Both the position numbers and the translations under genes were made by a program. A stretch of DNA of 64,000 bases from Tubiluchus corallicola (taxonomy: Eukaryota > Animalia > Priapulida): contig JAQGDQ010000212.1 of the NCBI GenBank assembly GCA_030141605.1, forward strand, positions 186,001 to 250,000, read 5' to 3'. How positions within the stretch are numbered: position 1 is the first letter of the stretch; every line of letters begins with the position of its first letter. Below are positions 10,156 to 62,150 of the stretch, piece after piece. Under the pieces are notes generated by a model. The model was given only the letters and a program-made list of their open reading frames with translations, ran no database searches and had not been told where the DNA came from.

Positions 10156-10611
10156 CTACAAAATTAAACCGGGAGCAGAAAATATGATAGAGCATATTGC
10201 CACCACGGTATAGACTGAAAAAACAAGAAGACATATCCTGTCCACGACCATGGCTGCAAACTTCCAATCATTATTCAGCTCTCTCTCGTCCTCCTCCTCT
10301 TTCAGATGGGAGGTTATCACTTTTAGCTCGTGTAAAATGTCCGCAAGTTCACTTCTGTTTCCACCGAGAACAGAACGATTTTCACCAAGTGGAAGTTTAC
10401 TATAACCACCGGGAGGTGGCGTGTTATTGGACGACCGGAAGTCGTCGTCTGCGTCAAGAACATTGGCTAGTAGGCTGCGAGAACAACGCTCTTTCAGTTC
10501 TATTTCTTTCAACTTTGAGTTAACAGCGAATTGTTTTAACCTGTCTTCGTTGCTCACTTGACGTTTCATGCAAAGTATTCTGGGAAGCCAACGGAGAAAC
10601 ACCGTTCGCAT
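10156..10611 (-). CDS. CHRNA7: nAChR alpha7-like subunit, exon 10 (M3-M4 loop, TM4, stop)
   Basis: ttcAG acceptor at 10613-10612; encodes KERCSRSLLANVLDADDDFR (motif of the invertebrate alpha7 group, Dalpha5-7) and DWKFAAMVVDRICLLVF; TAG at 10158-10156. Confidence 0.95.
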   Translation of the reverse strand: MRTVFLRWLPRILCMKRQVSNEDRLKQFAVNSKLKEIELKERCSRSLLANVLDADDDFRSSNNTPPPGGYSKLPLGENRSVLGGNRSELADILHELKVITSHLKEEEDERELNNDWKFAAMVVDRICLLVFSVYTVVAICSIIFSAPGLIL

Positions 10612-11736: not shown

Positions 11737-11846
11737 CCAGTTTGGCATTCGGTATAAATCTGTAGTCCTATGATGCATGTTTAAGACGCAAACAGTCAAG
11801 GTCACAGAAAGAGCACACATTATCATAATACATGCAAAGTACTTCC
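11737..11846 (-). CDS. CHRNA7: nAChR alpha7-like exon 9 (TM3: GKYFACIMIMCALSVTLTVCVLNMHHRTTDLYRMPNW)
   Basis: 110 nt, ttcAG/GTaagt boundaries, phase 1/0; absent from the ORF track and translated by hand. Confidence 0.93.
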
Positions 11847-12717
11847 CTGAAAAAACACGCTAACTATTATTGTTGTTAACATTATTTTCCGTTCATTTAG
11901 TTAGAAAATGGGAAATATTTTATCGGATGGGATTTTGGACATTTTTGGTGTAGAAGACGTAAATTACATACGTAAACGATAATATATATTCATACGAAAA
12001 TTTTATTTACCCACGTCCATTTTAAATTCTATGTATATATTTGTATATAGTCTATTATAATTTGCCTGTAACATTGTAGTGTATATTTTGTTTTAAATTT
12101 TTGGCACAGTAGTTTTTAGTTTGCACTGGACGCATTTGCCTTTGTGTAAATTTTATTCTAATGATGCGATGTTCTTTTATGCTTTTATAGTTATGAATAT
12201 CGATTTTTATGGCAAGTAAAGATTTTATATATATATAATCTTTCATAACTATAACTAACGATATTCATAACTATATATATATATATATATATAAGAGCGA
12301 GACATTAGCCACCTGGCGCCAGTTAACTGAGATTAATTTTGCTAAACAGTCTATGCTGAACAGCTCTTAAATTCAGTTAATGCTGGGCTGGTATAATAAA
12401 TTCTGCCATGCGGTTGCACTTAGTTTTCATACTAGTTATGAAAGGGAACACATTTTAAATTTGTCTGTCGAATTACAAAACATCTTTGAAAAACACCCCA
12501 CGTGATCAGAATTTAAAGGAGAAGTAAACCTTTATTTACAAAAAACCAAAAAATTCTTTTTGAAATTTTATATCACTAACTTATATACCGCCTTGAGACG
12601 TTAAAATAGCAGTTAGACCTATGAGTGGCACAGCGTCAGAGACTAAACAAGAAACAATAATTATACCTATGAGTGGCACAGCGTCAAAAGTAGAAAAAGA
12701 AACAGTAGCATGCATAC

Positions 12718-12804
12718 CTATGAGTGGCACAGCGTCAGAGGTAGCTGGCATTGTTTCTGCTACCAGTAAAAGGAAGACCATGAGAGATAAGAGAATCGTT
12801 ACAC
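12718..12804 (-). CDS. CHRNA7: nAChR alpha7-like exon 8 (TM2: CVTILLSLMVFLLLVAETMPATSDAVPLI)
   Basis: 87 nt, cAG/GTatgc boundaries, phase 1/1, the same size as alpha7 exon 8. Confidence 0.95.
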
Positions 12805-13330: not shown

Positions 13331-13525
13331 ATAACGTGAGTTTTTCTCCTGAATCTGGCGGTAGTAGGAACACGAGTAGTGTCATGGTTGAAATAAGAAA
13401 GCACGGTATCAATAAATTAAACAAGTAGTACAAAACTCTTCGTCGTATCACAACAGTAAATGTGACGTCGAAATAGGGCTCGGGGCAGCAGGTATACAAA
13501 AATTTATTCCTTTTGCCTGGAACAC
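13331..13525 (-). CDS. CHRNA7: nAChR alpha7-like exon 7 (loop C YTCC, TM1, GEK)
   Basis: 195 nt; [65 protein letters not shown]; vicinal cysteines define an alpha subunit. Confidence 0.97.
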
Positions 13526-14309
13526 CTGAAAAAGTCAAGATAGCGATGTCAGTAATATTCAAGAAAATGTAACTCACTCGTGTGGTAACTCGAGTTCATA
13601 CTGCATAATAATATCCAAACTATTCATCGAAGTAAAGAACTCATAATATTATATAACTATATATCGGGTGGCGTAGAAAAAACTTGCCGAAGTTTAGATC
13701 ACAATAATATTAGAAGCAAGCATCTTACAAAGTTGAAGTTTAATAGGGTAATTTTTAGAATCCTCTAACTTTTGGCTGTGAAAGTTACACGGTTGTAGTT
13801 TTTGTAGTTATTAAGGTACAACCAAAAAACTTTCATAAGTTAAAAATTAAATACCGGCACAATGTTAGTTAATTATAACAGCCACGTTAACATACCAATC
13901 ACTCAGAACATGGCAGCAAAAGAACAAAGGAATCAATAGATTACGTCATAGTATTCACCACAGAAAATAAAGCTCTGATAAAGGTTTGTTGCCAAGAAAA
14001 AAATGGTATTTAATCTTCTGGATTACGGTTTCTAGGCTTCTCTTAAAGAGAAAATGTACAATGGCCGCACAGAAACATTTGATGCAAAGGAAATAAAGGC
14101 AAAAATTGTTGAGTGCTGACGTGAGAAACTGAATCAGCTGTTGGAAGAAAGGTCTTTGCATAATTTGCACTAAAAATGGTAGAATCCTAGAGCGTAAAAC
14201 TTTGAAAGCGACCAAGGGAATGACCTAAAATTGTTAGCTTTCATATATAAAGGTGTGTTACATGAATGCTGTAATTTAAAGCTATTCCTATATCATGATC
14301 AAAACTTTG

Positions 14310-15090
14310 GGTGATGTGGTGTGGTGTAGCATGCTATGAGTGATGTGGCGTGATGTAGTATGCTATGGATGATATGGTGTGGTAGCTGTGGTGTGATACA
14401 GTATGCTATGGGCTATGTACTGTGGTAGCTGTGGTATGGTATAGTATGTTATGGGTGGTATGGTGTGGTGTAGAATGCCATGAGTGATGTGGCGTGATGT
14501 AGTATGCTATGGATGATGTGATGCGGTAGCTGTGGTGTAATATAGTATGCTATGGGCTATGTGGTGCGGTGGCTGTGGTATGGTATAGTATGTTATGGGT
14601 GGTATGGTGTGGTGACTACGCTGTGGTGTATATGCTATGAGTGATGTGCTGTGGTGGCCGTGGTAGGTGTAGTATGGCTATGAGTGATGTGGTGTGGTGG
14701 CTATGGTGTGGTGTAGTATGCCATGAGTGATGTGGCAGGGTGGCTGTGGTGTGGTGTAGTATGGCTATGTATGATGTGGTGTGGGGGAGTGGTGTGGTGT
14801 AGTATGCTATGAGTGATGTGGTGTGGTGGCTGTGGTGTGATGTAGTATGGCTACGCGTGATATGGTGTTGGGGAGTGGTGTGGTGTGGTATGCCATGAGT
14901 GATGCGGTGTGGTGTAGTATGCTATGGGTGATGTGATATGGTGGGTGTGGTGTGGTGTGGTGTAGTATGTTATGGATGATGTGATATAGTGGGTGTGGTG
15001 TGGTGGGAGTGGTGTGCTATGCAGTGTCGCCTTCTACCAGGTGGCACAATCAGTTTTCTTTGTATTATTTTCCGTTTGAATTACACATTT
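14310..15090. repeat. Degenerate GT-rich (GTGGT) minisatellite with a conserved right boundary, nAChR intron 6
   Basis: GTGGTGTGGTGTAGTATGCTATGAGTGAT units; right flank shared with 17910-17985. Confidence 0.85.
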
Positions 15091-15441: not shown

Positions 15442-15560
15442 CAATCAAATCCCATTCTCCGTTTTCAATATAATCGCTGATGTCGCCACCATCTGGCATG
15501 GATAACCGAAGATCAAGTCCTGTACCATCGTACGTCCAGGAGCCAAACTTCATCAAGCAC
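15442..15560 (-). CDS. CHRNA7: nAChR alpha7-like exon 6 ([39 protein letters not shown])
   Basis: 119 nt, tttAG/GTacga boundaries, loop B WTYDG, second Cys-loop cysteine. Confidence 0.95.
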
Positions 15561-16499: not shown

Positions 16500-17985
16500 T
16501 GGTGGGGTGGTGTGGTGTGGTGTAGTATGTTATGAGGGATATGGTATAGTGGGGTGGGATGGTGTTGTGTGGCGTGGTGTGGTGTGGTGCAACATGCTAT
16601 GAGGGATATTGTGAGGTTTGTTGTAATATGCTATGAGGGACATGGTATGATGGGTATGGTGCGGTGTAGTAACTATGAGGGATATGATGAGGTGTAGTAT
16701 GCTATGAATGATGTGGTGTGGTGAGTGTGGTGTTGTGTGGTGTAGTATGCTATGAGTGATATGGTGTGGTGTGGTTTTGTATGCTATGAGTGGTGTGGTG
16801 TGGTTTAGTATGCTATGAGGGGTATGGTTTGTTGGTTATGGTGTGGTTTAGTATGCTATGAGTGATATGGTGTGGTGAAAGTGGTGTGGTTTGCTGTGCG
16901 TGATGTGGTGTTGGGAGTGGTGTGGTTTGCTGTGCGTGATGTGGTGAGTTGGGAGTGGTGTGGTTTGGTGCGCGTGATGTAGTGAGTTGGGAGTGGTGTG
17001 GTTTGGTGCGCATGATGTGGTGAGTTGGGAGTGGTGTGGTTTGGTGCGCGTGATATGGTGAGTTGGGAATGGTGTGGTTTGGTGTGCATGATGTGGTGAG
17101 TTGGGAATGGTGTGGTTTGGTGTGCATGATGTGGTGAGTTGGGAGTGGTGTGGTTTGGTGCGCGTGATGTGGTGAGTTGGGAGTGGTGTGGTTTGCTGTG
17201 CGTGATGTGGTGAGTTGGGAGTAGTGTGGTTTGGTGTGCATGATGTGGTGAGTTGGGAGTGGTGTGGTTTGGTGTGCGTGATGTGGTGAGTTGGGAGTGG
17301 TGTGGTTTGGTGTGCGTGATGTGGTGAGTTGGGAGTGGTGTGGTTTGCTGTGCGTGATGTGGTGAGTTGGGAGTGGTGTGGTTTGCTGTGCGTGATGTGG
17401 TGAGTTGGGAGTGGTGTGGTTTGCTGTGCGTGATGTGGTGAGTTGGGAGTGGTGTGGTTTGATGTGCGTGATGTGGTGAGTTGGGAGTGGTGTGGTTTGG
17501 TGCGCGTGATGTGGTGAGTTGGGAGTGGTGTGGTTTGGTGCGCGTGATGTGGTGAGTTGGGAGTGGTGTGGTTTGCTGTGCGTGATGTGGTGAGTTGGGA
17601 GTGGTGTGGTTTGCTGTGCGTGATGTGGTGAGTTGGGAGTGGTGTGGTTTGGTGCGCGTGATGTGGTGAGTTGGGAGTGGTGTGGTTTGGTGCGCGTGAT
17701 GTGGTGAGTTGGGAGTGGTGTGGTTTGGTGCGCATGATGTGGTGAGTTGGGAGTGGTGTGGTTTGGTGCGCGTGATGTGGTGAGTTGGGAGTAGTGTGGT
17801 TTGCTGTGCGTGATGTGGTGAGTTGGGAGTGGTGTGGTTTGGTGCGCGTGATGTGGTGAGTTGGGAGTAGTGTGGTTTGCTGTGCGTGATGTGGTGAGTT
17901 GGGAGTGGTATGCTATACAGTGTCGTCTCACCAGGTGGCGCAAGTGTTTTGTAGTATTATTAAAACTTTTCCTTTTGAGTTACAC
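16500..17985. repeat. 38-bp GT-rich minisatellite, nAChR intron 4
   Basis: Unit GATGTGGTGAGTTGGGAGTGGTGTGGTTTGGTGCGCGT, homogeneous 16900-17910 and degenerate to the left. Confidence 0.95.
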
Positions 17986-18135: not shown

Positions 18136-18245
18136 CTGTTATACATGAGTACGTCTGGCCTCCATATTTTATCAGGCGGAATACGTATTGTAGTGATGTT
18201 ACCGTATTCTGATGGTTCCCAGTGTAAATTCTGATCCGTCCACGC
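18136..18245 (-). CDS. CHRNA7: nAChR alpha7-like exon 4 ([37 protein letters not shown])
   Basis: 110 nt, gtAG/GTaaaa boundaries, loop [10 protein letters not shown]. Confidence 0.95.
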
Positions 18246-19319
18246 CTACAGTTCAAGCAAGAAGAGAAGAATCAGCCATGTATTTGGAGTAATCACTTGA
18301 GAGCTTGATTCAGTATTCAAGAAAGAGTTAACAAATACATTCGAATTGACTGCTTCAAAATGACACAGGTATATCCTTAATGAGGCGAATAGTGAGAATG
18401 AATAAAAAGAATTCACAAAAGTAAAAGAAAACAAGAAAAAGAAAGAATTGGCACATCGTTTTGAACTACTCCTCTAGTTCTAATAATTGTGAGATTTTTC
18501 ATTCTTTAATAAAATCACACTCTAATTTAGAAATTTCCACAATTTATCACGTAAATTGACGTCTACAAGTAATTAACAAACTATGTGATAATGATGGTGG
18601 GAAAAATGCATTATGTGTTACGCATCGGTCAGTGGCGTAACTAAGTGTAGCTAATATCTAAATTGTCAGTGGAGTGGGGGGCTGAAAAGAAGCGCCGCCC
18701 CCGCGCCATGAAGTCTTGGCTACGCCACCGACACCAGCTTTTAAGTATGTTACATTAAAAAAATAATAAGCATACTATTAAGTATGTTACTTTAGATATA
18801 CTTATAGCGTTAAAGTTGACAAGCCTATAAACTCTTTGACATGCAAGCATGCAGTCTGACTCATGCAACTCATTCCTGGGAAAGAAAAGCCAGGATCCGG
18901 AAACGCTGACAACCTGGGATTTTGTGTGTGTATATTTATATATTACACATGATCGTAACATCACACAAATAGACAAACCAGAAAAACAATAACGAACAAT
19001 TTCATAATTTTCCACTATTCGATTTGCTCACGAAAATTCACTAAATCCACCAGTTACGTCATGATTTCCAATTAAATGGCGGCTACCACTGCGCTTGAAA
19101 ATTTCCGTACAGCGGTAATATAAATTACCAACTTTTCTCCTTTTTATAAACATTTTTTTGCAAATTTCTAAGTTACATGTCTGTCAAATTAAGTGATAAC
19201 AGTAAAATAAATACAATGTGCTAGGTGACTTGTCTCTTCCTATAAGCTGAGAATTTAGCTCTGCACAATCTGCAACAAACAACTGTATCCAACATCACAA
19301 GTTTGGTATCATCATTTGT

Positions 19320-20145
19320 CATTAGCAGCCAATAACTTGTCATTATTTTTACGGACATGACAGTGCGACAAACAAGCCTACAGTCAATAGCGTGTCATTT
19401 TACAAATATGACAGTGCGACGAACAAGCCTACAGCTAATTGCGTGTAATTTTACAAACATGACAGTGCGACGAACAAGCCTACAGCTAATTGCGTGTAAT
19501 TTTACAAATATGACAGTGCGACGAACAAGCCTACAGCCAATTGCGTGTCATTTTAGAAACATGACAGTGCGACAAACAAGCCTACAGCCAATTGCGTGTA
19601 ATTTTACAAACATGACAGTGCGACAAACAAGCCTACAGCCAATTGCGTGTAATTTTACAAATATGACAGTGCGACGAACAAGCCTACAGCCAATTGCGTG
19701 TGATTTTACAAATATGACAGTGCGACAAACAAGCTTACAGCCAATAGTGTGTCATTTTACAAATATGACAGTGCGACAAACAAGCCTACAGCCAATTGCA
19801 TGTGATTTTATAAACATGACAGTATGACGTACTAATCTATAGCCACCAGGGTATTCTTTGACAAGCGCAGTGCCTCAAGCATAAACAAGCTTTTATCCAA
19901 TGAGGTTTTATTTAACAAATACAGCACATACAACATACAATTGCAGCCAATCAGGTCTCACTTCACAAACAAAAATTTTCCAAAAACAAACTGCAGCCAG
20001 TAGGGATTCACTTTACAAAAACAGCAATCCAACACAAATCAGGAGCCAATAAGGGTTCTGTTTACCAGCCCCTTGCGTGTAAAACATACAAGACACCAGC
20101 CAATAAGGTTTCGTTTTACAAACATCACAAGCGTTGTATACTTAC
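19320..20145. repeat. 51-bp minisatellite (about 10 conserved copies to 19830, then degenerate up to exon 3b)
   Basis: Unit ATGACAGTGCGACAAACAAGCCTACAGCCAATTGCGTGTAATTTTACAAAC; AGCCAA recurs about every 50-55 nt up to 20157. Confidence 0.88.
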
Positions 20146-20190
20146 GACATCTAGCCAAACATTTGTCGATATTATCTGGTTCTTCTCATC
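20146..20190 (-). CDS. CHRNA7: nAChR alpha7-like alternative exon 3b (DEKNQIISTNVWLDV)
   Basis: 45 nt, aactAG/GTaagt boundaries, phase 0/0, paralogous to exon 3a, loop D tryptophan retained. Confidence 0.9.
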
Positions 20191-21063
20191 CTAGTTAAAA
20201 CACAAGTGAAGAGTTAGAGGAAAATATAAGTGAGTATTGGTTAGTTGTGACAGCGGAAAACAAGAAAGAGAGAGAGAGAGAGAGAACGAAATAAGAAAGC
20301 GAAAGAAAAAGAGAATGAGAGTTTTAATTCGTGCACTTTTCAACGTGGACAGGCTGGAACAAGCTTTTTGAGTAGAGCATGATAACAAAAGCGAAATCGC
20401 AAACATTTTGCTGAGCTGTTCATTTGCAACAGAATCAGTGTTATGAGGAAGATTTCTGCTCTTAGTTTCGTGAATAAAACCTCTTCGCTATGATTGATTT
20501 CGTATTTCAATCAAAATCCTTTCAGCGTTGTACAATTGCATGATTTCTTGCGAATATCAAAGTAATTAACTGGAATTTTTGCTTTCGAACTTGCACAAAA
20601 CCACAAAAACAGAATATTTGTGCAAATTCTTTCTGATGTTATTGAATACGCATAAAAATAATCTTTTCTAAAGTTACTATGTTGTAATACTGAATCAGTG
20701 TTCACACTAGCAAGTCCGTATCTCTAGAAAGCAGAAACAACAAAACAGTTCTTTGCAGGACTGTTTTTAAGGATACGGCAAAACAACAGTGTGAACGAGC
20801 TTTAGGGGATATGTAAAAAGACATTTCATTCCCAAGACAAAGACCGTCGCCCTTGTAAATGAATGTTTACGGTCAAGGAAAAATATATAATTTCAACACA
20901 AAATGCCAGTTTGGGTAACGGCAACTTAAAGCATTTTCTTTTGTAAATGAAAACCCAATGTTAATACGTGGACGGTTACGAAAAAAAACACTTGATTTCG
21001 CTTTTGTTTTCAAGCTCAGCATCACGTGATCTCTTCATTGTGACGTCATATTTGGCTACTCAC

Positions 21064-21108
21064 CAAATTTAACCAAATATTTGTCGCCATATTTTGATTC
21101 TTTTCGTC
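21064..21108 (-). CDS. CHRNA7: nAChR alpha7-like alternative exon 3a (DEKNQNMATNIWLNL)
   Basis: 45 nt, caacAG/GTgagt boundaries, phase 0/0, loop D. Confidence 0.92.
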
Positions 21109-21566: not shown

Positions 21567-21832
21567 GGGGATACAGCTCAGTGGTAACGTGCTCGCTTCC
21601 CATCGGGAAGTCGCAGGTTCAATTCCAACCAAGTCATGCCGAAGACATAAAAAATGGTACTGCTGGTTCTTCGACGAAGCACGCGAGTTTATTGAAGTAA
21701 CATGCAGGTAATAATAATCAGGACCACCTTGGAAGTAAGTATAGAGTTACGAAATTTGTTATCCCTGTACTATGTCCTAAACTAAATTATTATTATTATT
21801 ATTATCATCATCATCATCATCATCATCATTAT

Positions 21833-25333: not shown

Positions 25334-25473
25334 CACGTCTATAATCTGCTGTAGAGTTATTCCAAAGTTGACTACCACAGGATCGCTCTCGTTTAGAACT
25401 GGTCGCTCTAGAACTTCATAGTCTTTCATTATCCTTCTGATCAGACGTCTGGCATCACGACTTTGATATGTAA
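25334..25473 (-). CDS. CHRNA7: nAChR alpha7-like exon 2 (TYQSRDARRLIRRIMKDYEVLERPVLNESDPVVVNFGITLQQIIDV)
   Basis: 140 nt, ttcAG/GTatga boundaries, phase 1/0, N-terminal helix and LERPV motif. Confidence 0.95.
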
Positions 25474-28539: not shown

Positions 28540-29088
28540 AACTCGTTTAGTAATGCCAAAGCGTTTCTGATAATTAACATAAGAGGTGAAAAACTTACTT
28601 AATGGTCTGTGAACCCAGTCAGTAAATGACGTCACAAGTGAACATAATTTTTAACAGCACCAGTATTCTACGAGCGTGTTGCACGTGTTTGCGAAAGTGG
28701 AAGTGGAAGCATAATGTTAGCATACGACATTCAGTGTGATATACAAAGATTGGCAAATTTTAAGTGCAAAATTTAAATTCGACGTTTACTGCTGTGCTCT
28801 CGAACGTGCGCACTACGTCACAACCGAATAACTGTGAACTAACAAGTACAGTACCGGTTTTTGGGCAACGCGTTTTGCGCGATGCAGGTGCTAGTGCCCA
28901 TCTATCTAACGAATGGCGAAATGCATGTAGTAGCGACGAACTAGTGGCTTGAACGTGAAATTGTGTTTGTGTGGTGGTAATAATTCTTTCATGTAAGTCA
29001 TTCTTAAAAAAACATTATGTTCTGTTTCAGTAATTTACAGGGCAGATGGGTTTTGAGCTACAGTATAAGACAGAGTTCGGTTTTCCGT
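28540..29088 (-). mobile_element. Family A DNA transposon copy
   Basis: Reverse-complement similarity to 2386-2988 (GAAATTGTGTTTGTGTGG...TAATTCTTTCA); boundaries approximate. Confidence 0.6.
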
Positions 29089-30090: not shown

Positions 30091-31014
30091 ATGGCGAATG
30101 CGAAACACGAGGAGACAATTGAAATGTACGGGGCAGGACCTCAGAGTGACGCAGAAGAAGGTATTGGTTGCTGTGGGTTGATCATAACTGGATTGTCCTA
30201 CTTGTTCATCCTTATCACGTTTCCAATTTCCATCTGGTTCTGTTTCAAGATGGTACAGGAGTACGAAAGAGCCGTCATTTTCCGATTGGGGCGCCTGCTT
30301 CCGGGAGGCGCCAAGGGTCCGGGATTGTTCTTCATAGTACCGTGCACTGATGAGTTTGTCAGGGTGGACTTGAGGACAGTCTCTTTCGACGTGCCACCGC
30401 AGGAGATATTGTCCAAAGATTCCGTAACCATTGCAGTTGATGCTGTTGTCTACTACCGGATCAAGAATCCAACTATATCCATTGTGAATGTCAATGATGC
30501 TGACCGGTCCACACGTCTTTTGGCACAGACGACATTGAGGAACGTCCTGGGAACGAAGAATATGTCAGAGTTATTGTCAGATAGAGAGCACATCAGTTCG
30601 ACAATGCAAAGTATCTTGGACGAGGCAACCGATCCCTGGGGTATCTTGGTCGAAAGAGTCGAAATCAAAGACGTGAAGTTGCCCATGCAGCTACAGCGTG
30701 CCATGGCTGCAGAGGCAGAAGCAGCAAGAGAAGCCAGAGCCAAGGTCATTGCGGCTGAAGGTGAACAACGGGCTTCGAGAGCTCTGAAAGAAGCTGCTGA
30801 CGTCATCGCCTCGTCACCGGCAGCCCTACAGCTGCGCTACCTGCAGACGCTTAACACGATCTCTGCTGAGAAGAATTCCACTATTGTATTTCCCATACCT
30901 ATTGAAATGATGAGGATGTACAACAATCCGTCCGGTGGTGGAGAAACGAGGCGGGAGAAAATTCCATGGAAGGAGCAAGAAGCAGCAACAGCTCCAATTG
31001 GATCAGATTTGTAG
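30091..31014 (+). CDS. STOM: Stomatin / band 7 (MEC-2-like) SPFH-domain protein, 307 aa, intronless
   Basis: Hydrophobic hairpin with conserved proline (ITFPISIW), VQEYERAVIFRLGRL, VDLRTVSFDVPPQEILSKDSVT, QRAMAAEAEAAREARAKVIAAEGE, ALQLRYLQTL; a single uninterrupted ORF with ATG and TAG. Confidence 0.97.
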   Translation: MANAKHEETIEMYGAGPQSDAEEGIGCCGLIITGLSYLFILITFPISIWFCFKMVQEYERAVIFRLGRLLPGGAKGPGLFFIVPCTDEFVRVDLRTVSFDVPPQEILSKDSVTIAVDAVVYYRIKNPTISIVNVNDADRSTRLLAQTTLRNVLGTKNMSELLSDREHISSTMQSILDEATDPWGILVERVEIKDVKLPMQLQRAMAAEAEAAREARAKVIAAEGEQRASRALKEAADVIASSPAALQLRYLQTLNTISAEKNSTIVFPIPIEMMRMYNNPSGGGETRREKIPWKEQEAATAPIGSDL

Positions 31015-31027
31015 AAGGTCCCTGCTA

Positions 31028-31831
31028 CGCCCATTTCACACTGAAAACGCAAGAGAAGTGACGCGCGGAATTGCTGTTAGAAAAACAGCAAATTTTAAAA
31101 AATCCGCTTTTTTTCGCAAAAACTGGTGCAGCAAGAAATTTCATTTCACACAGAAACCGCGTTGCTTTTTACGCACGACCAGCTAGCTCCTAGTTACTCG
31201 GGTCGCAAGCTTGTGGCTGTTAATCGCCATCATGGACATGGGAAGTGGTCCTGACAAACCACTGGCATAGCAGTGTTTAGTTTTTTTGCTGGGCTACTGC
31301 TGCGTTTAACCTGTCTTGAGGGCAAATTTCTACCTGCCCGATGTCTACAATAAACGTAGTGAGCATATGATGATGATGATAATGATGATGATGACAGCTA
31401 GAATGACGCAACGTTTTTACTGAGCGCTTATTATTAATTATTACGCCTTTATTAATTACCGTCGTTATTTGGCGCACCAAATTAACGAGTCAAAACAGCA
31501 CCTCGTAACGTTGTATGGCTAGTTAAGAGACTCAAAACTTATAATTTTATGCTGAATTAAGTTAATTGCTGCTTGGCGAACAAGAAAGAGGTAACTGAAC
31601 AGTTAAACCTTAACGTAAAATCCGCGAGGAATTCTCGCTAAAATAGAACATGCGGTATTTAGCGGGCGCTTTGTCTCACGAGGAGGACGCATAGCTGGCG
31701 GTGGAGGGCCTCACCAGGGATTCTAGAGGAAAAATCTTCTTGAGGCGTCTGTATGAAGTACGCCCTAGATTGCAACTTGAGAAAATACCGCCAGGATGTT
31801 TTTGCCGCGCGTCCTCAGTGTGAAATGGGCC
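31028..31831. mobile_element. Harbinger-like MITE of about 800 bp inserted 13 nt after the stomatin stop codon
   Basis: TIR CGCCCATTTCACACTGAAAACGC / GCGTCCTCAGTGTGAAATGGGCC; flanks CTA and TAA. Confidence 0.75.
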
Positions 31832-58760: not shown

Positions 58761-58944
58761 AATATCTCAGTCATTCATAGTATACATCCATCCAGCCATA
58801 AATAAAACCTCTAGAGCTGTGTTGCTCACCCATTCAAATGCTGACCATCCTTGGTGTCGCTTGACTTCAGGAACTAAATTAAGCATACCATAACGCTGGT
58901 TATCAGGCAATTGTTGTTTTTTTCTAATTTCGTTAGAAAATTGA

Positions 58945-59383
58945 AGGAAAACAGGATGATTTTTCATATACAACCCCATTTTGGAGTACAAAAAAGAACA
59001 CGTTTTGATACAATTAATACTGCAAAAGCTTTCTGATGCCAAACAAAGCTTTATGATGACATCACAAACTAGCATAACTCTCAACAGCAAAAATATTCCA
59101 TCGGTGCTTGCAAAAGCGAAAATTGTGTGTAGTTCGTTACAAACTAACACATCTGACTTGAGAGGTAGAGCACCCGTTATTTGTGCAACGCGTTTGCGAA
59201 ATGTAGACGCTAATGCCCATCTAACTAGCAAATGGCGAAAAGCATGTAACAGCGAATGTGAAATTGTGTTCGTGTGGTAATAATTCTTTCACGTAATACA
59301 TTTTTGAGAAATGGTATGTTTCCTTTCAATATTTTAGGGTAGATTTGCTGGAGTTATAGTTTAAGATTGGGTCCAGTTTTTCA
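58945..59383 (-). mobile_element. Family A DNA transposon copy
   Basis: Near-identical reverse complement of 61579-62022. Confidence 0.8.
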
Positions 59384-61578: not shown

Positions 61579-62022
61579 AGCAAAAACGGGAGCCAATCTT
61601 AAATGTAGATCAAAACAATCTACACTTTAAAATACTGAAAGGAAACACTACTTTTTCAAAATTGACTTACGTGAAAGAATTATTACCACACAAACACAAT
61701 TTCACATTCGCGCCACTAGTTCTTCGCTGTTACATGCTTTTCGCCATTCGCTAGTTAGATGGGCATTAGCGTCTGCATTTCGCAAACGCGTTGCACAAAT
61801 AACGGGTGCTCTACCTATCAAGTCAGATGTGTTAGTTTGTGACAAACTACACACAATTTTCGCTTTTGCAAACACCGATGGAATATTTTTGCTGTTGAGA
61901 GTTATGCTAGTTTGTGATGTCATCAATTGTTTGGCATCAGAAAGCTTTTGCAGTATTAATTGTATCAAAACTTGTTTGTACTCCAAAATGGGGTTGTATA
62001 TGAAAAATCATCCTGTTTTCCT
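61579..62022 (+). mobile_element. Family A DNA transposon copy
   Basis: TTAA|AGCAAAAACGGGA ... TCCTGTTTTCCT; homologous to 2386-2988. Confidence 0.8.
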
Positions 62023-62097
62023 TCAATTTTCTAACGAAATTAAAAAACAACAACAATGGTGTGATAACCAGCGTTGTGGTATGTTTATGTTAGCTAA

Positions 62098-62150
62098 CTA
62101 AGTTAAGCAACACCAGGGACGGTCAGCATTTGAATGGGTGAGCAACACAG
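62098..62150 (+). pseudogene. 5S rRNA-derived fragment (internal control region); related copies at 58817-58870 (-) and about 7450-7505 (+)
   Basis: AAGTTAAGCAACACCAGGGACGGTCAGCATTTGAATGGGTGA aligns by eye with 5S box A-IE-box C (AAGYTAAGCA...GGTTAGTACTTGGATGGGWGA). Confidence 0.5.

What the first reader, a model, noticed from the sequence alone, without database searches (positions are those of the whole stretch)
20146..21108. Duplicated 45-nt loop-D exons (3a/3b): candidate mutually exclusive splicing in an alpha7-type receptor
Seen: two paralogous phase-0 exons with consensus splice sites, DEKNQNMATNIWLNL and DEKNQIISTNVWLDV. They differ at many synonymous positions but keep DEKNQ/TN/WL, which points to purifying selection on both. 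They differ two residues after the loop-D Trp (Asn vs Asp), a position known in alpha7 (Gln57) to affect agonist and toxin selectivity. Established: Drosophila Dalpha6 has mutually exclusive exons 3a/3b, whereas vertebrate CHRNA7 has one exon 3. Inference: the intron positions and repeat landscape look non-insect, so this is either deep conservation or convergent duplication that tunes ligand pharmacology.
Basis: partly seen in the sequence, partly recalled or inferred. Interest (0 to 1): 0.85.

Follow-up and report, generated by a model that had tools for sequence, protein, structure and literature searches.

The report
Twin ligand-site exons, worm nicotinic receptor
A nicotinic acetylcholine receptor gene, likely from a priapulid-type marine worm, carries two intact copies of the short exon that builds part of the ligand-binding site, and they are likely used one at a time, as is already known for insects and, in part, ticks.

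Summary
Two intact 45-nt, phase-0 copies of exon 3 lie on the minus strand (3a 21064-21108, 3b 20146-20190) of an alpha7-type nAChR gene. They are the only such boxes among 420 AG-45-GT candidates. Synonymous sites are saturated (pS 0.77, pN 0.19). A transcript-like protein of a close relative (P0001, 446/465 identical) carries 3b alone, 15/15, so 3b is spliced without 3a. No transcript of 3a was found. P0001 is sister to Priapulus caudatus (100/100), so the host is likely a priapulid-type worm.

The exon pair is not insect-specific. It is published for a tick and annotated in horseshoe crabs and a barnacle. In that tick the forms found are 3b and a non-functional 3a+3b, so strict exclusivity cannot be assumed. 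Ancient inheritance versus convergence cannot be decided on 15 residues. I lean to convergence, because window 3b shares none of the three residues that mark arthropod 3b. A 24-bp stem predicted inside the 3a-3b intron is a candidate splicing element.

This scan has noted duplicated alpha7-type exons on other DNA (an annelid, a springtail; unchecked). Verdict: new member of a known kind, moderate interest.

The parts
25334..25473 (-). exon 2 (140 nt), ends in phase 0
   Evidence: 46/46 aa identical to P0001
21064..21108 (-). exon 3a (45 nt), loop D copy with Asn at alpha7 position 57
   Evidence: no transcript found
20994..21017 (-). 5' arm of a 24-nt inverted repeat, 46 nt after the 3a donor
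20375..20398 (-). 3' arm of the inverted repeat (22 of 24 pairs; duplex -31.8 kcal/mol), 184 nt before the 3b acceptor
20191..20335 (-). 143-nt AG-free stretch before 3b with a long pyrimidine tract; candidate branch As at 20316, 20241, 20214
   Evidence: motif scan only
20146..20190 (-). exon 3b (45 nt), loop D copy with Asp at alpha7 position 57
   Evidence: 15/15 aa in P0001, joined to exon 2 and exon 4
18136..18245 (-). exon 4 (110 nt)
   Evidence: 31/36 aa to P0001
15895..16032 (-). exon 5 (138 nt), ends inside the Cys-loop
   Evidence: 45/45
15442..15560 (-). exon 6 (119 nt), loop B
   Evidence: 39/39
13331..13525 (-). exon 7 (195 nt), loop C with vicinal cysteines and TM1
   Evidence: 60/64
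12718..12804 (-). exon 8 (87 nt), TM2; no second complete copy seen
   Evidence: 28/28
11737..11846 (-). exon 9 (110 nt), TM3
   Evidence: 35/36
10156..10611 (-). exon 10 coding part (456 nt with stop), cytoplasmic loop and TM4
   Evidence: 142/151

Best explanation
The gene holds two intact, old copies of exon 3, and the pre-mRNA likely takes one or the other into most mature transcripts, which would give two alpha7-type subunits that differ at 6 of 15 residues of the loop D strand. Shown: the gene structure, open frames, saturated synonymous sites with kept residues, and a 2-3b-4 join in a close relative. Inferred: that 2-3a-4 is also made, and that 3a+3b and exon-3 skipping are minor, non-functional by-products as in arthropods. 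Also inferred: that Asn versus Asp at position 57, on the complementary face beside Trp55, changes sensitivity to charged or bulky ligands more than to acetylcholine, while the 3a changes at 49-51 (Asn-Met-Ala versus Ile-Ile-Ser) affect assembly or interface packing. The 873-nt intron is too long for simple steric exclusion. Exclusivity would therefore need splicing factors or RNA structure, and the predicted 24-bp intronic stem is the best candidate element. On origin I lean about 60:40 to an independent duplication in this worm lineage.
For: Unique, canonical AG/GT boxes. pS 0.77 versus pN 0.19, p = 0.004, with unalignable flanks: a long-dead copy would not keep both splice sites and nine invariant residues. 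P0001, an uninterrupted 487-aa frame on a 1663-nt Logan contig, has 3b alone. The same architecture is used one-at-a-time in Drosophila and Tribolium (PMC1919356 passages) and Tuta absoluta (50% 3a, 33% 3b, 17% neither of about 20 clones; PMC5111602 passages). Single-copy 3a and 3b isoforms are annotated in Tachypleus and Pollicipes. Both residues at 57 are normal in the family (N 24, D 20 of 146 distinct exon-3 peptides). The odd Asn of 3a at position 6 also stands in a dust-mite alpha7-like subunit. Chicken alpha7 Q79E nearly abolished the imidacloprid response (as reported in PMC10906874 passages). Stem: score 18 versus at most 16 in 300 shuffles and at most 13 in 16 control stretches; pair probabilities 0.89-1.0.
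Against: No transcript or relative's DNA shows 3a. P0001's cluster has one member, and a search of short proteins gave no close fragment among 33 hits. 3a carries three neighbouring changes, two of them rare (N at position 6 in 1 of 146, A at position 8 in 3 of 146), which could mean recent relaxation. In Ixodes ricinus only 3b and 3a+3b were found, and 3a+3b gave no current (PMC13578988 passages). Q57G did not change the ACh EC50 and deltaD57Q changed nothing (PMC2755872 passages). The stem leaves about 105 nt between the 3a donor and the farthest candidate branch point, too far for steric exclusion, and it could favour 3a-3b joining. It was picked after a wider scan whose best perfect stem was matched by 7 of 100 shuffles, and no conservation could be tested.
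Confidence: 0.62

Rival explanations
1. Tick-like cassette: 3b is the constitutive working exon, and 3a is sometimes added in front of it, giving a 15-residue insertion and a non-functional subunit that would lower receptor output.
For: The only transcript-like sequence has 3b alone. Ixodes ricinus shows 3b and 3a+3b, and only 3b works (PMC13578988 passages). 3a+3b rises during silkworm development (PMC1919356 passages). The predicted stem loops out 595 nt and brings the 3a donor near 3b. 19 of 358 stored proteins carry both copies in tandem.
Against: A mere spoiler insert need not keep DEKNQ, TN and WL through synonymous saturation. Arthropod annotations include 3a-only forms (P0122, P0392).
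Confidence: 0.2
2. 3a was functional for a long time but is now dead or decaying, and 3b is the only exon used.
For: Three neighbouring changes in 3a, two rare in the family. No yTrAy branch motif within 300 nt of the 3a acceptor. A possible decayed further copy at 18267-18311 suggests copies can be lost here.
Against: Both splice sites are canonical and the donor is strong (gtgagt); there is no stop. Looser branch candidates exist. The same Asn occurs in a mite subunit.
Confidence: 0.13
3. On origin rather than use: one duplication in the ecdysozoan ancestor gave both this pair and arthropod 3a/3b, with later losses.
For: Same order: the upstream copy keeps Asn at 57 and the downstream copy does not, as in all five arthropod pairs compared. 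The gene falls in the same alpha7 clade as arthropod alpha6. The best-scoring fixed trees were of this type, by 0.2-1.1 log units.
Against: Asn is also the state of the single copies in Priapulus and the millipede, so it is not a shared derived trait. Arthropod 3b has L/Q at 6, I/V at 8 and S/T at 14; window 3b has I, S, D, and is closer to arthropod 3a (BLOSUM 59-68) than to 3b (48-60). The Priapulus model, three tardigrade isoforms and three nematode proteins seen show one copy each (these are proteins, not genomes). The AU test rejected none of eight topologies.
Confidence: 0.4

Closest known systems
Insect nAChR alpha6 alternative exons 3a/3b (Jin et al. 2007, PMC1919356; Berger et al. 2016, PMC5111602; passages read)
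   Same: Tandem 45-nt loop D exons in an alpha7-clade gene; upstream copy ends WLNL; a similar 3a-3b intron (873 nt here, 899 bp in Tuta absoluta).
   Different: Host outside arthropods; 3b lacks the arthropod 3b residues and has Asp at 57; no second complete exon 8 was seen; exclusivity not shown here.
Ixodes ricinus alpha6 variants A (3a+3b) and B (3b) (PMC13578988; abstract and passages read)
   Same: Non-insect exon 3 pair; a 3b-only transcript is the one recovered.
   Different: Chelicerate; 3a-only not reported there; whether 3a+3b is made here is unknown.
Priapulus caudatus alpha7-like XP_014667766.1 (P0002)
   Same: Closest named relative: sister to P0001 at 100/100, 72% identity over 401 columns.
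   Different: One annotated protein with one exon 3, 10/15 identical to each window copy; its genome could not be inspected.
Human CHRNA7 / alpha7 (PDB chains)
   Same: Best solved relative (E 9.8e-145); W55 and position 57 align; exon sizes 140/45/110 and 195/87/110 match CHRNA7 as recalled (not from a call).
   Different: Single exon 3 (recalled; constitutive in PMC1919356 Fig. 1 legend); the intron between exons 5 and 6 lies elsewhere here (138+119 nt versus a recalled 80+168).

Membership tests
alpha7-type nAChR alpha subunit | Ligand-binding and membrane domains of Cys-loop receptors, vicinal loop C cysteines | tested here: met
   PF02931 and PF02932 on P0001; YTCCPEPY in window exon 7
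alpha7-type nAChR alpha subunit | Groups with vertebrate alpha7, nematode ACR-16 and arthropod alpha5-7 | tested here: met
   19-row clade at 100/100 against three unnamed outgroup rows; top PDB hits are alpha7. Internal order unresolved; no mollusc, annelid or onychophoran row.
Mutually exclusive exon pair | Tandem homologous exons of equal length and phase with canonical splice sites | tested here: met
Mutually exclusive exon pair | Each copy is found alone in transcripts | tested here: inconclusive
   3b alone in P0001; nothing for 3a
Mutually exclusive exon pair | The two copies are rarely or never joined | not testable with these tools
   No RNA holder listed
Mutually exclusive exon pair | Steric exclusion by a very short intron (under about 50 nt) or frame-based decay of the double form | tested here: not met
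   Intron 873 nt, about 105 nt to the farthest branch candidate even with the stem formed; double form stays in frame
Arthropod alpha6 exon 3a/3b (one-to-one orthology of the copies) | 3a groups with arthropod 3a and 3b with arthropod 3b | tested here: inconclusive
   AU test rejects none of 8 trees; parsimony 48-50 steps
Arthropod alpha6 exon 3a/3b (one-to-one orthology of the copies) | 3b carries the arthropod 3b residues (L6, I8, S/T14) | tested here: not met
   Window 3b has I6, S8, D14
Docking-site/selector splicing (Dscam type) | One conserved docking site pairing in turn with selectors beside each exon | tested here: inconclusive
   Short candidate pairings at 20331-20352 with intron 2 and with the exon 4 start are no stronger than shuffles; no sister genome for conservation

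The most novel reading that the evidence does not exclude
The loop D exon choice of alpha7-type receptors predates the split of priapulids and arthropods. It would then be one of the oldest known alternative-exon pairs in a neurotransmitter receptor, here with an Asn/Asp charge switch at the ligand site and an intronic RNA stem that steers the choice.
Probability: 0.2. Interest if true: 0.65.

Novelty: new member of a known kind. Interest (0 to 1): 0.4.

Why it matters
Exon 3a/3b splicing is known mainly from insecticide-target work in insects. A matching pair in a likely priapulid either pushes the pair back to the ecdysozoan ancestor or shows that the same 45-nt exon was duplicated twice. 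Either result bears on why this ligand-site strand is repeatedly made switchable. The two forms differ by a charge at a position known to affect drug response, so they offer a natural two-isoform test in oocytes. The kind of system is known, so the gain is evolutionary reach, not a new mechanism.

Tried and rejected
No whole genome is held for this window, so paralogues and sister loci could not be read.

RNA evidence: no RNA holder was listed. Run X1 behaves as DNA, with contigs across intron and 3b at 0-1 differences. It has no cover over 3a; a hole proves nothing. Its loose end at 20152 reads as the exon 3 donor of a different nAChR paralogue. Run X2 has nothing on either exon and only a 92%-like stomatin piece (29 differences in 353), so it says nothing on this gene.

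Protein searches: short proteins, 33 of 33 candidates, none close to this gene (best identities 47-73%). A tandem-exon query gave 24 hits of 134 candidates: 16 with both copies, all insects or Limulus, none outside arthropods. That query was arthropod-derived and biased that way.

Exon trees on 15 residues had no power. The perfect-stem scan of exon 2 to exon 4 found a best of -24.0 kcal/mol, reached by 7 of 100 shuffles, and 15 stems at or below -15 versus a null mean of 7.7 and maximum of 16. Exon 1 was not found among 92 ATG-to-donor candidates upstream. A first isoform check used wrong exon 5 ends and was redone. Chance origin and recent assembly duplication were rejected: the copies differ at 13 of 45 nt and their flanks do not align. 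PMC11802352 passages held nothing relevant.

Full report
Observation. A six-frame motif scan found the gene on the minus strand, with both exon-3 peptides at the stated places. 3a spans 21064-21108 and 3b 20146-20190; each is 45 nt, phase 0, with AG and GT ends. Among 420 AG|45|GT boxes in the window they score 64 and 60 against the Priapulus exon-3 peptide; the third scores 12. Exons 2 and 4-10 were mapped with canonical sites. Frames are open with 3a, 3b, both or neither. Exon 1 was not found.

Age and selection. The copies share 32/45 nt. Synonymous sites are saturated (Sd 6 of 7.8) while non-synonymous sites are mostly kept (Nd 7 of 37.2), Fisher p = 0.004. A local alignment of about 800 nt around each copy covers only the exon and its splice signals. 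The duplication is therefore old, and both copies were under selection for most of that time. This does not exclude recent decay of 3a. Its residues 6-8 (N, M, A) occur in 1, 31 and 3 of 146 distinct exon-3 peptides among the 358 proteins then stored. The one other Asn at position 6 is in a dust-mite alpha7-like subunit, seen in 8 of 15 cluster members; the other 7 are fragments without this exon.

Host. The last exon's best hits were P0001 (94%, Logan, unnamed), then Priapulus caudatus (52%), then arthropods (the best 120 of 582 listed). In a 22-row tree P0001 and Priapulus are sisters at 100/100, 72% identical, inside an alpha7 clade with arthropod, tardigrade, nematode, crinoid and fish rows. 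The tree had no mollusc, annelid or onychophoran row, so 'priapulid-type worm' is an inference.

Use in transcripts. P0001 is an uninterrupted 487-aa frame on a 1663-nt contig. It matches the predicted 3b isoform at 446/465 residues and exon 3b at 15/15, with exon 2 joined to 3b and 3b to exon 4. That shows 3b used alone in a close relative. A contig keeps one path, so it says nothing on 3a. No RNA holder was listed for this gene, and the two runs laid gave no junction. 3a inclusion is unshown.

What is known. Insect alpha6 3a/3b are alternatively used. Thirty cDNAs from Drosophila and Tribolium showed no double form, silkworm makes a double form that rises in development, and the honeybee has one copy (PMC1919356, 12 of 23 passages seen). 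Tuta absoluta gave 50% 3a, 33% 3b and 17% neither, and human alpha7 without exon 3 gave no current (PMC5111602 passages). The tick Ixodes ricinus makes 3b, which works as a homomer, and 3a+3b, which gave no current (PMC13578988 abstract and passages). Stored annotations show two exon-3 forms in Tachypleus, Limulus, Ixodes scapularis and Pollicipes. All 19 stored proteins with tandem copies are arthropod. Searches for a priapulid or other non-arthropod case found none: 0 papers, 0 papers, 12 listed with none on this topic by title and abstract start, and none of 10 listed holding 'Priapulus'. The library lacks most subscription papers, and I read no supplements.

Origin. Five arthropod pairs, the window pair and six single copies were tested on eight fixed trees. 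The AU test rejected none under three models, and parsimony gave 48-50 steps. The order matches arthropods (the Asn-57 copy comes first), but Asn is also in the Priapulus and millipede single copies. Window 3b has none of the arthropod 3b residues at positions 6, 8 and 14 and resembles arthropod 3a more. The Priapulus exon is 10/15 to each window copy. Tardigrade (3 isoforms) and nematode (3 proteins) rows show one copy each. I put convergence at about 0.6.

Likely function. The N/D site aligns with human alpha7 Q57. Chicken alpha7 Q79E nearly abolished, and Q79R raised, the imidacloprid response (as cited in PMC10906874). Q57G halved morantel efficacy but left the ACh EC50 unchanged, and deltaD57Q had no effect (PMC2755872 passages). 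An Asn/Asp swap would plausibly change sensitivity to some ligands; an effect on acetylcholine signalling is not supported by these papers. Asp at this place is also in the nematode ACR-16-type rows.

Splicing mechanism. The 3a-3b intron is 873 nt and the double form is in frame, so neither steric blocking nor frame-based decay enforces the choice. It beat 300 of 300 dinucleotide shuffles of the intron and 16 of 16 control stretches. That test was made after a wider scan, so the true significance is lower. A second 16-nt pair nests inside it, which also fits a decayed foldback element. With the stem formed, about 46 + 59 nt still separate the 3a donor from the farthest branch candidate (20316). 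That is above the roughly 50-nt limit (used for Dscam introns in PMC8042237 passages; otherwise recalled). Both donors are predicted to lie in hairpins. The stem is a lead, not a mechanism. A search joining nAChR with RNA structure terms listed 9 papers, of which only PMC1919356 mentions nAChR.

Earlier scan notes (AI-written, unchecked) describe duplicated exons in alpha7-type genes of an annelid and a springtail. I could not test them; they lower the surprise of this finding.

Verdict. A real, old exon duplication, likely alternatively spliced, extending a known arthropod arrangement to a likely priapulid. New member of a known kind; interest 0.4.

Noticed in passing
window 30091-31014 (+): Intronless stomatin/band-7 ORF of 307 aa (PF01145, E 4e-38) on the opposite strand, upstream of exon 2. 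Since exon 1 was not found nearby it likely sits inside intron 1 of the receptor gene. Run X1 covers parts of it at 99% and X2 holds a 92%-like piece.
   Followed up: partly
window 18267-18311 (-): Exon-3-like stretch (ESSSQVITPNTWLIL) ending 21 nt before the exon 4 acceptor, without AG/GT ends, overlapping a branch motif; 24/45 nt to 3a. Score 37, reached by 1 of 1000 shuffles of the intron region. Possibly a decayed third copy.
   Followed up: partly
window 12613-12740 (-): The last 19+ nt of exon 8 (TM2-TM3 loop) with its donor are repeated twice more in the intron at 51- and 48-nt steps; the steps are multiples of 3, so these could act as alternative donors.
   Followed up: partly
window 18628-18641 and 18719-18732: GC-rich 14-bp inverted repeat in the intron before exon 4, the strongest perfect stem of the region (-24.0 kcal/mol); may be a small mobile element end.
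   Followed up: no
window 13331 / 12804 (exon 7-8 junction): The start of TM2 reads GEKLTLCVT, with Cys where arthropod and human rows have Gly; shared with P0001 and Priapulus.
   Followed up: no
window 16862-17909, 19357-19823, 14308-15016: Large intronic minisatellites (38-nt x 27.6, 51-nt x 9.2, 43-nt family) and long microsatellites throughout the gene.
   Followed up: no
window 21628-21750, 31241-31308: Short dispersed repeats with very high summed depth in run X1; the first has a tRNA-like look, possibly a SINE.
   Followed up: no
window 58770-59288 (-), 61631-62098 (+), about 28600-29010 (-): Three related open stretches with similar translations, probably copies of one repeat element.
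   Followed up: no
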